From: a virus
Lineage: Duplodnaviria > Heunggongvirae > Uroviricota > Caudoviricetes
Virus record (IMG/VR): IMGVR_UViG_3300035516_000805
Direction: 5' to 3' (one strand)
DNA: 64,000 bases
Shown: piece by piece, positions 17,335-17,720 of the stretch
How positions within the stretch are numbered: position 1 is the stretch's first letter
Layout of the letters: each line of letters starts with the position of its first letter
Translations under genes and position numbers: made by a program
Notes under the pieces: generated by a model
The model's database searches: none
Told to the model about the DNA's origin: nothing
What the model saw: the letters and a program-made list of their open reading frames with translations, nothing else

Positions 17335-17379
17335 TAGTACATTAAAGGAGAAATGTTTATGACAGAGAAATTAAAGCAA

Positions 17380-17720
17380 CGTTTTTGTAAAGATAATAAT
17401 ATGACGCTCTCCTATGCTAAAACATAGGAGTTTCCTTAAATGCGTCATCAGACTAAGTATGGGGAAATCCATACTACGATAATCAGATTAAGACACCTAC
17501 GGTTGTCGCCTCAGACTGTTGCTCTGTCGCATACATTTAAGTCAGGTGGAAATAATAACAGCCTTGTGATGTATGCATGTAAGTCTGATTATCATTGTCG
17601 AGAGGAAGTACGATTTCATACATGGTAACAGTGTATGGATAGTCACAACTAAGTCATAAGACTTAGAGTTATGTATTGAATTACATCAAGAAAGGAGTGC
17701 CTGTTATGGTGTATGTATTA
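17380..17720 (+). ncRNA. candidate structured RNA (GC-elevated, multiple stems)
   Basis: Local GC clearly above flanks; stems ctcctatg/cataggag, gtatgg/ccatac, catacat/atgtatg, ctaagtc/gacttag, and a long-range pair atcagact/agtctgat. Confidence 0.3.

What the first reader, a model, noticed from the sequence alone, without database searches (positions are those of the whole stretch)
17350..17720. GC-elevated, stem-rich ~300-nt region: candidate structured RNA (possibly group I intron-like), followed by a gene with atypical codon usage
This region departs sharply from the surrounding AT-rich composition and has no convincing ORF. The 62-aa ORF 17440-17628 has poor codon usage and no RBS. Several perfect stems are visible: ctcctatg/cataggag, gtatgg/ccatac, catacat/atgtatg and ctaagtc/gacttag. 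There is also a long-range 8-bp pairing atcagact (17447)/agtctgat (17583), whose CAGACU/AGUCUG core resembles the P7 pairing of group I introns. The downstream gene 17834-18259 also has higher-GC codon usage and a strong RBS. Together they may be a horizontally acquired cassette containing a ribozyme or ncRNA, for example a group I intron remnant or a ROOL/GOLLD-like phage RNA.
Basis: seen in the sequence. Interest (0 to 1): 0.6.

Follow-up and report, generated by a model that had tools for sequence, protein, structure and literature searches.

The report
Orphaned IscB guide RNA (HEARO) remnant
The GC-rich, stem-rich stretch is the guide-RNA gene (HEARO/omega-RNA) of an IscB transposon whose nuclease gene was deleted after seven codons, so it is a well-preserved fossil of a known mobile element and not an intron or a new ribozyme.

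Summary
Window 17401-17611 is 40.8% GC against 28% overall and folds far better than shuffles (z -4.7). It gives a full-length Rfam match to HEARO (RF02033, 97.4 bits, cut-off 83, E 1e-18), which is the omega-RNA scaffold of the RNA-guided nuclease IscB. No group I intron, ROOL or GOLLD match appears even at E<=10.

In all 11 related loci fetched by DNA pattern, the RNA is followed within about 70 nt by a ~420-aa IscB gene. Four loci fetched through their IscB genes show the same order. Here only the ribosome-binding site and seven codons (MVYVLNI, then a stop) remain.

Metagenome contigs with 99% identical flanks carry an intact 335-aa gene and an 85-aa gene in place of the RNA. This fixes the insertion point at 17400|17401, immediately 5' of ATAA. 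The 16-nt guide is 17385-17400. A later deletion removed iscB, the far transposon end and 1,429 bp of host DNA.

The downstream 141-aa gene has the highest GC3 in the window, but it occurs unchanged in the RNA-free allele, so it is not part of a cassette.

Verdict: a new instance of a known kind, probably inert unless an IscB is supplied in trans.

The parts
17359..17400 (+). First 14 codons (MTEKLKQRFCKDNN), with the AAGGAG ribosome-binding site just upstream, of a disrupted 335-aa host gene. The frame runs on into the RNA and stops at 17425-17427.
   Evidence: Alignment with the uninterrupted allele L003. The N-terminal motif EKLKQRFCKD..I..Q.F.EP.F is conserved in 15 aligned homologues, from a family of more than 1,400.
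17385..17400 (+). Predicted guide segment of the omega-RNA (TTGTAAAGATAATAAT). It is the host flank immediately 5' of the scaffold. The 16-nt length is assumed from characterised IscB systems.
   Evidence: Scaffold homology with L008, L025 and L028 starts at 17401, and the upstream sequence is unrelated in every locus. The intact allele L003 reads TTGTAAAGATAATAAT|ATAAcc. There is a single exact match in the window.
17401..17611 (+). HEARO / IscB omega-RNA scaffold core. It contains the first stem (17401-17407 / 17442-17448), two hairpins, the long-range stem (17478-17488 / 17583-17593), the nexus-region helices and the pseudoknot arms (17451-17455 / 17595-17599).
   Evidence: Rfam RF02033, model positions 1-211 of 211, 97.4 bits (cut-off 83), E 9.7e-19. 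56 of 63 model pairs are standard pairs. On four subfamily members, 27 of 71 pairs change on both sides and 84.9% of cells are paired, against 44.6% or less in slid controls.
17612..17705 (+). 3' extension of the omega-RNA beyond the Rfam model. It has a conserved hairpin (17616-17622 / 17632-17638), a second hairpin (17649-17666), a window-specific small hairpin (17671-17675 / 17682-17686), and the iscB ribosome-binding site GAAAGGAG (17690-17697).
   Evidence: For the first hairpin, 7 of 7 pairs change on both sides across 11 loci, with 89.6% of cells paired. The layout aligns with L008, L025 and L028. Meers et al. note that RF02033 lacks downstream structural elements.
17706..17729 (+). Stump of iscB: ATG plus six codons (MVYVLNI), then TAA.
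   Evidence: Intact relatives begin MVYVLNI(N/D)G(Q/K)PLMP (P0200, P0213, P0243). Nucleotide homology to the iscB genes of L025 and L028 ends at 17725. tblastn with a full IscB finds nothing else in the window (E>0.9).
17727..17733 (.). Deletion junction: 7 nt (TAAATTC) of unassigned origin. Host homology resumes at 17734. The junction lies inside an AT-only inverted repeat (17717-17734 / 17737-17754) followed by a T run.
   Evidence: blastn and alignment with L003, L006 and L007. Inverted repeat I8.

Best explanation
This is the remnant of an IscB-type insertion sequence (ISC / IS200-IS605 family, an 'OMEGA' system).

Inferred history:
1. The element inserted into a 335-aa gene of a large mobilisable, plasmid-like replicon, immediately 5' of an ATAA target site.
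2. As in all such elements, its end carries the gene for a roughly 300-nt omega-RNA (HEARO). The first 16 or so nucleotides of that RNA are read from the flanking host DNA and serve as the guide. Together with IscB, this guide would direct cleavage of the uninterrupted, element-free site (guide match plus ATAA motif), which preserves the element.
3. A later deletion removed iscB after codon 7, the far transposon end, and 1,429 bp of neighbouring DNA (the rest of the 335-aa gene and an 85-aa gene).

What remains is a complete, correctly folding guide-RNA gene with its guide, the iscB ribosome-binding site and a 7-codon stump. It is probably still transcribed by read-through from the upstream operon. 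With no nuclease in cis and no far transposon end, it can neither move nor cut, and it is most likely a recent, inert fossil.

Shown: family membership, RNA structure, absence of iscB, the insertion point and the extent of the deletion. Inferred: the order of events, transcription and inertness.
For: - Family: full-length Rfam HEARO hit above the gathering score.
- Structure: covariation supports the structure, and the window copy conforms to it.
- Linkage to IscB: all 11 pattern-fetched loci with HEARO (98-148 bits) carry an IscB ORF a few tens of nt downstream. In L008 this ORF matches Pfam RRXRR + HNH, and one relative is named 'RNA-guided endonuclease IscB [Butyrivibrio fibrisolvens]'. Four loci fetched through their IscB genes (L025/L026, L028/L029) have the same order.
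- Stump: the window keeps the ribosome-binding site plus MVYVLNI, which matches the N-termini of intact IscBs.
- No nuclease nearby: no IscB in the 64-kb window by tblastn, nor among the Pfam hits on record for called genes in about 10 kb beyond each end.
- Insertion point: alleles L003, L006 and L007 have 99.2-99.5% identical flanks, an intact conserved gene, and no HEARO. They give the junctions 17400|17401 and 17733|17734.
- Target site: the empty site reads ...AATAAT|ATAA. The far ends of three related elements each have a conserved hairpin, about 20 nt, then ATAA(A). Other families show ATGA at the equivalent position.
- Literature: Kapitonov 2016 (PMC4810608) reports insertion upstream of ATGA/ATCA/ATAA without target duplication. 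Meers 2023 (10.1101/2023.03.14.532601) places HEARO at the transposon end and describes donor-joint targeting. KraIscB-1 has a 3' ATAAA motif (PMC11610941).
- Transcription: a promoter-like site lies at 15702-15731, all genes are on the + strand, and no terminator-like site lies between 15600 and 17420.
Against: - No expression data are available.
- All four contigs with this allele are 100% identical to the window, so there is no polymorphism that could show decay or selection.
- The scaffold scores as well as copies next to intact genes (97.4 bits against 97.9-104 for several), which fits a very recent deletion but also fits retention for a function.
- The ancestral full insertion was not found, so the insertion-then-deletion order is inferred.
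- The origin of the 7-nt filler at the junction is unknown.
- The rest of the replicon and the host chromosome could not be searched for an IscB.
Confidence: 0.88

Rival explanations
1. A standalone, trans-acting omega-RNA. The RNA is kept because an IscB encoded elsewhere (the rest of the replicon, the host chromosome or a co-resident element) loads it. The complex then cuts replicons that carry the uninterrupted 335-aa gene (TTGTAAAGATAATAAT followed by ATAA), giving this plasmid variant an advantage over its sibling allele.
For: - The scaffold, the guide and the 3' hairpin are all intact.
- Both alleles occur in metagenomes with neighbouring accession numbers: JGI 3300035515 against 3300035498, and SRR11794470/76 against SRR11792607.
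- IscBs of this clade are very abundant, with more than 7,900 relatives, including Butyrivibrio.
- Standalone omega-RNAs that function with IscB are reported (Hirano 2022, PMC9581776, citing Altae-Tran 2021).
- The same replicon also hosts TnpB elements.
Against: - No IscB was found in about 84 kb of this replicon.
- The RNA is only 72-79% identical to the closest omega-RNAs found next to intact genes, so compatibility with a foreign IscB is uncertain.
- There is no sequence variation with which to test for selection.
- A simple recent deletion explains everything without assuming a function.
Confidence: 0.09
2. A group I intron remnant, or another large ribozyme or ncRNA (ROOL, GOLLD).
For: The region is GC-rich and highly structured. 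A CAGACU/AGUCUG complementarity exists in the sequence.
Against: - No Rfam match to any intron, ROOL or GOLLD model at E<=10, while HEARO explains all 211 nt.
- The proposed P7-like arms pair with other partners in the covariation-supported structure.
- The interrupted gene is not restored by removing the RNA, because 1.4 kb of it is missing.
Confidence: 0.01
3. The region encodes a small protein: the 62-aa ORF 17440-17628, or the 22-aa fusion ORF 17359-17427.
For: Both ORFs exist. The 22-aa ORF has a good ribosome-binding site inherited from the disrupted gene.
Against: - The 62-aa frame has three stops in L008, and substitutions show no strong third-position excess (10/11/16).
- The substitutions are compensatory in RNA helices.
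- The 22-aa ORF is an accidental fusion of 14 native codons with RNA sequence.
Confidence: 0.02

Closest known systems
HEARO RNA (Rfam RF02033), the omega-RNA of IscB/IsrB OMEGA systems
   Same: - Full-length covariance-model match above the curated cut-off.
- The same helices and pseudoknot arms, with compensatory changes relative to close relatives.
- The 5' end coincides with the transposon boundary, and the guide is read from the flank.
- A conserved 3' hairpin and the iscB ribosome-binding site follow.
   Different: The nuclease gene that defines the system is reduced to seven codons and the far transposon end is gone. The RNA is therefore an orphan. It also carries a roughly 20-nt extra hairpin before the ribosome-binding site relative to L008.
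ISC / IS200-IS605-family non-autonomous transposons (Kapitonov 2016; Meers 2023)
   Same: Insertion without target duplication immediately 5' of an ATAA-type tetranucleotide. The guide plus this motif would recognise the empty site.
   Different: Only one end survives. No subterminal hairpin end and no TnpA are present, so the element is not mobile.
Standalone omega-RNAs that act in trans with IscB (Altae-Tran 2021, as cited in PMC9581776)
   Same: An omega-RNA gene with no adjacent nuclease gene.
   Different: This copy clearly arose by deletion of its own iscB, as the stump and ribosome-binding site show. No partner IscB has been identified and trans activity is untested.
PATE-like protein-less IS200/IS605 derivatives (mentioned in Meers 2023)
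   Same: A derivative of the family with no protein-coding gene.
   Different: PATEs keep both transposon ends and can be mobilised. This remnant has lost one end together with adjacent host DNA.

Membership tests
HEARO / IscB omega-RNA (RF02033) | Covariance-model score at or above Rfam's gathering score, over the full model | tested here: met
   97.4 bits against a cut-off of 83, model positions 1-211 of 211, E 9.7e-19.
HEARO / IscB omega-RNA (RF02033) | Conserved secondary structure maintained by compensatory changes | tested here: met
   56 of 63 model pairs are standard in the window. Against L008 there are 8 double and 4 single pair-preserving changes. On 4 subfamily members, 27 of 71 pairs covary, with 84.9% of cells paired against 44.6% or less when slid.
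HEARO / IscB omega-RNA (RF02033) | Lies directly upstream of, and on the same strand as, an IscB/IsrB ORF | tested here: not met
   Only the ribosome-binding site and codons 1-7 (MVYVLNI, then a stop) remain at 17690-17729. No IscB is found elsewhere in the window. All 11 pattern-fetched loci do have the ORF. This feature describes the system, not the RNA family, and the stump shows it was once met.
HEARO / IscB omega-RNA (RF02033) | The 5' boundary is the transposon end and the guide is variable flank sequence | tested here: met
   Homology to relatives begins at 17401. The first pair A17401-T17448 covaries with T-A in L008 and G-C in L025 and L028. Upstream sequences are unrelated, even among copies in one genome. 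The empty-site allele fixes the junction.
ISC / IS200-IS605 transposon | Insertion next to a specific tetranucleotide, without target duplication | tested here: met
   The empty site in L003 reads AAT|ATAAcc. ATAA(A) follows the conserved far end of L008, L025 and L028. This matches Kapitonov 2016.
ISC / IS200-IS605 transposon | Two ends with subterminal hairpins (mobilisable by TnpA) | tested here: not met
   The far-end motif seen in relatives (CCATTCATCC, hairpin, TTTTCTG...) is absent. Host DNA resumes at 17734.
Functional OMEGA ribonucleoprotein | The RNA is expressed, binds IscB and guides cleavage of a target next to its recognition motif | not testable with these tools
   This needs RNA-seq and biochemical or plasmid-interference assays.
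Group I intron | Match to the intron covariance model (P3-P8 core) and interruption of a gene that splicing would restore | tested here: not met
   No Intron_gpI hit at E<=10. The interrupted gene lacks 1.4 kb, so removing the RNA cannot restore it.

The most novel reading that the evidence does not exclude
The orphan omega-RNA is retained as a trans-acting guide. Loaded by an IscB from the host or a co-resident element, it would cut sibling replicons that still carry the intact 335-aa gene (TTGTAAAGATAATAAT + ATAA). A dead transposon would thus serve as an RNA-only weapon in competition between plasmids.
Probability: 0.08. Interest if true: 0.65.

Novelty: new member of a known kind. Interest (0 to 1): 0.25.

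Why it matters
The finding resolves an apparently odd GC-rich structured region as a known RNA family and removes the intron and novel-ribozyme readings.

It is a clean natural example of how an IscB element decays. The RNA-free and decayed alleles are both available and the full insertion is inferred, so the insertion point, guide and target motif can be read directly.

It also adds to the evidence that omega-RNA genes can outlive their nucleases. This is the precondition for the trans-acting guides thought to lie on the path towards tracrRNA and CRISPR systems.

The practical value is modest: one more omega-RNA sequence variant from a very AT-rich replicon.

Tried and rejected
- Nucleotide searches of the region and of 20 kb around it against phage and plasmid collections, in near and distant modes, found nothing.
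- Exact 35-mer scans found nothing in viral contigs or genomes. The metagenome scan found one contig, L009, which is the same element as L008. The ancestral full insertion was therefore not recovered.
- tRNA/tmRNA scan: none.
- Sub-threshold Rfam hits at 18266-18387 (trpB, L10_leader, PyrR) coincide with terminator-like hairpins after the 141-aa gene. I treated them as chance.
- Pfam survey of 30 large ORFs in the window for IscB, IsrB, TnpA or TnpB: none found.
- I considered that L003 might be an excision footprint and not a true empty site. I rejected this because its N-terminal codons are conserved across the gene family.
- I considered a mini-element that retains both ends. I rejected this because the conserved far-end motif is absent.

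Full report
**1. The observation**

The window is very AT-rich (28.0% GC). The stretch 17401-17611 is 40.8% GC (z 2.46). Only 1.7% of 211-nt windows reach this value, in nine regions in all.

RNA 17385-17760 folds to -102.9 kcal/mol against -78.3 +/- 5.3 for shuffles (z -4.67).

The fifth, atcagact (17447) with agtctgat (17582), joins two real 8-mers that pair with other partners in the family consensus and in the MFE fold.

The 62-aa ORF is not coding. The aligned frame in the closest relative has three stops, and substitutions fall 10/11/16 by codon position.

**2. What it is**

cmscan against Rfam 15 gives one hit above threshold in the whole 64-kb window. It is HEARO (RF02033) at 17401-17611 on the + strand, covering model positions 1-211 of 211, at 97.4 bits (gathering score 83) and E 9.7e-19. 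A permissive scan of 17100-18500 at E<=10 adds only terminator-like noise downstream. It finds no group I intron, ROOL, GOLLD, 6S or tmRNA.

HEARO is the scaffold of the omega-RNA that guides the transposon-encoded nuclease IscB. [quoted passage not shown] They also note that RF02033 lacks further structural elements downstream. Goltsman et al. equate HEARO ORFs with IscB.

**3. Relatives**

Degenerate core patterns retrieved one viral contig (L008, the same element as the 176-kb metagenome contig L009) and ten genome loci. The genome loci come from Hippea, Marinomonas, Vibrio, Maribrevibacterium, four copies in one Myxococcales MAG, and a goat-ileum Eubacteriaceae MAG.

All have HEARO at 98-148 bits. 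In all of them an ORF beginning M(F/V)V(F/Y)V(L/I/Q)...PLMP follows a few tens of nt later. The L008 ORF matches Pfam RRXRR + HNH, which is IscB. It has more than 7,900 relatives, one of them named 'RNA-guided endonuclease IscB [Butyrivibrio fibrisolvens]'.

In the window, the RNA is followed by GAAAGGAG (17690-17697) and ATG GTG TAT GTA TTA AAT ATA TAA (17706-17729), which reads MVYVLNI and then a stop. Intact relatives start MVYVLNI(N/D)G(Q/K)PLMP (P0200, P0213, P0243). Nucleotide homology to their genes ends at 17725. tblastn with a full IscB finds nothing in the window.

About 10 kb beyond each end of the window, recovered from other assemblies, holds a full TnpB, a TnpB fragment, a Mob_Pre relaxase and DNA polymerase III alpha. 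It holds no IscB and no second HEARO.

**4. Structure**

In the window copy, 56 of 63 consensus pairs are standard pairs. Against L008 (about 79% identical) there are 8 double and 4 single pair-preserving changes.

On an alignment of the window with L008, L025 and L028, 27 of 71 pairs change on both sides. 84.9% of cells are paired, against 26-45% when partners are slid by 1-3 columns. No shuffle out of 500 reaches the observed values.

The hairpin just 3' of the Rfam model (17616-17622 / 17632-17638) covaries at 7 of 7 pairs across 11 loci. A second hairpin (17649-17666) has counterparts in L008, L025 and L028. The RNA therefore runs from 17401 to about 17700 and is structurally complete.

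**5. Insertion site, guide and deletion**

The exact 141-aa protein encoded downstream occurs on seven metagenome contigs.

- Four of them (L001, L002, L004, L005) are 100% identical to the window.
- Three (L003, L006, L007) are 99.2-99.5% identical in the flanks. In place of window 17401-17733 they carry a 335-aa gene, an 85-aa gene and intergenic hairpins (L003 201-1629, 1,429 bp), with no HEARO.

The 335-aa gene belongs to a family of more than 1,400 proteins whose N-terminus (...EKLKQRFCKD..I..Q.F.EP.F) is conserved. L003 is therefore the intact ancestral state.

The window keeps exactly the first 14 codons (17359-17400). The RNA starts at 17401, and its first base pair covaries with relatives.

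The empty site reads TTGTAAAGATAATAAT|ATAAcc. ISC elements insert without duplication upstream of ATGA, ATCA or ATAA (Kapitonov 2016). The far ends of L008, L025 and L028 share the motif CCATTCATCC, a hairpin, about 20 nt, then ATAA(A). Other families here show ATGA at the equivalent place. KraIscB-1 uses a 3' ATAAA motif.

The guide is therefore 17385-17400, and the predicted target is the uninterrupted allele, as the donor-joint model expects.

The right junction is 17733|17734. The 7 nt at 17727-17733 are of unknown origin. The junction sits in an AT-only inverted repeat followed by a T run.

**6. The downstream gene**

Gene 17834-18259 has the highest GC3 (0.331) of 51 ORFs, its own promoter-like motif and an AGGAGG ribosome-binding site. 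It is present unchanged in the HEARO-free allele, so it is not part of a cassette with the RNA.

It has no Pfam or PHROG family and only a handful of remote homologues. A confident model (pLDDT 86.8) has no significant PDB fold match. Its function remains unknown.

**7. Mechanism and alternatives**

The best explanation (0.88) is a decayed IscB element: insertion at ATAA, followed by a deletion that took iscB, the far end and 1.4 kb of host DNA. This left an intact but orphaned guide-RNA gene. It is probably transcribed by read-through, given the promoter-like site at 15702-15731 and the absence of a terminator before 17420.

Whether it still does anything is open. Standalone omega-RNAs can work in trans, and both alleles occur in metagenomes with neighbouring accession numbers. 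No partner IscB was found, however, and there is no variation with which to test for selection. I give the trans-acting reading about 0.09. The group I intron and coding readings are each at or below 0.02.

**8. Novelty**

The RNA family, the transposon family and orphan omega-RNAs are all described. This is a new sequence instance, with no nucleotide match in the phage or plasmid collections, and its history is unusually easy to read. Interest is low to moderate.

Noticed in passing
window 17834-18259: A 141-aa protein with the highest GC3 in the window, its own promoter-like motif and a strong ribosome-binding site. It matches no Pfam or PHROG family. It has six remote homologues, and residues 51-99 recur as up to 13 repeats in proteins of about 2,000 aa. 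The AlphaFold model is confident (pLDDT 86.8; eight strands plus a C-terminal helix) but has no significant PDB match.
   Followed up: partly
window 15683-15738, 18439-18494, 18876-18931: A repeated 56-nt motif containing TTGACA and the palindrome TGACATTAATAATAATACAATGTCA sits in front of successive gene cassettes, each preceded by a terminator-like hairpin (15653-15692 resembles 18351-18390). It looks like a shared promoter/operator for modular cassettes.
   Followed up: no
L024 7163-8413 (about 600 nt upstream of window position 1) and L020 12825-13295 (about 2 kb past the window end): The same replicon carries a full-length TnpB (416 aa) and a 156-aa TnpB fragment. It has therefore been colonised repeatedly by IS200/IS605-family elements. 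A Mob_Pre relaxase and a 1,387-aa DNA polymerase III alpha also lie in these flanks.
   Followed up: partly
L008 5988-6005 and L003 201-211: The 11-mer ATAACCATTCA follows the insertion point in the empty allele L003, where it is native coding sequence. The same 11-mer also occurs near the far end of the L008 element. There, CCATTCA is the start of the end motif shared with L025 and L028. ATAA is the expected target site, but the extra 7-nt identity is unexplained.
   Followed up: partly
L003 117-163: Relative to the window, the HEARO-free allele has a 24-nt tandem duplication of the ribosome-binding site and start codon of the 335-aa gene. The site appears to be prone to rearrangement.
   Followed up: no
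window 18282-18345 and 19145-19170; L003 1150-1215 and 1505-1560: Relatively GC-rich paired hairpins (for example TTAGACAGTAGTTCTAAAGGAACTACTGTC) recur between genes in both alleles. They resemble REP-like intergenic repeats and account for the sub-threshold Rfam leader and terminator hits at 18266-18387.
   Followed up: no
window 11203-13207; 60217-61266 and 62841-63770; 35609-37600, 41491-46091: The window holds paired HipA_C kinase genes, two Fic-domain genes and three RecD2/PIF1-like helicases. It also holds a topoisomerase, an ALP_N actin-like protein, DUF5688, an SNF2 helicase and a sigma-70 factor. This gene content is typical of a large conjugative or mobilisable plasmid-like element.
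   Followed up: partly
L008 / L009 (IMGVR_UViG_3300028887_001852; Ga0310696_10000070, 176 kb): The closest intact IscB element lies on a contig classed as viral, next to three tRNA genes, and is inserted at the 3' end of a 105-aa ORF. This is an IscB element residing in a large phage-like genome.
   Followed up: no
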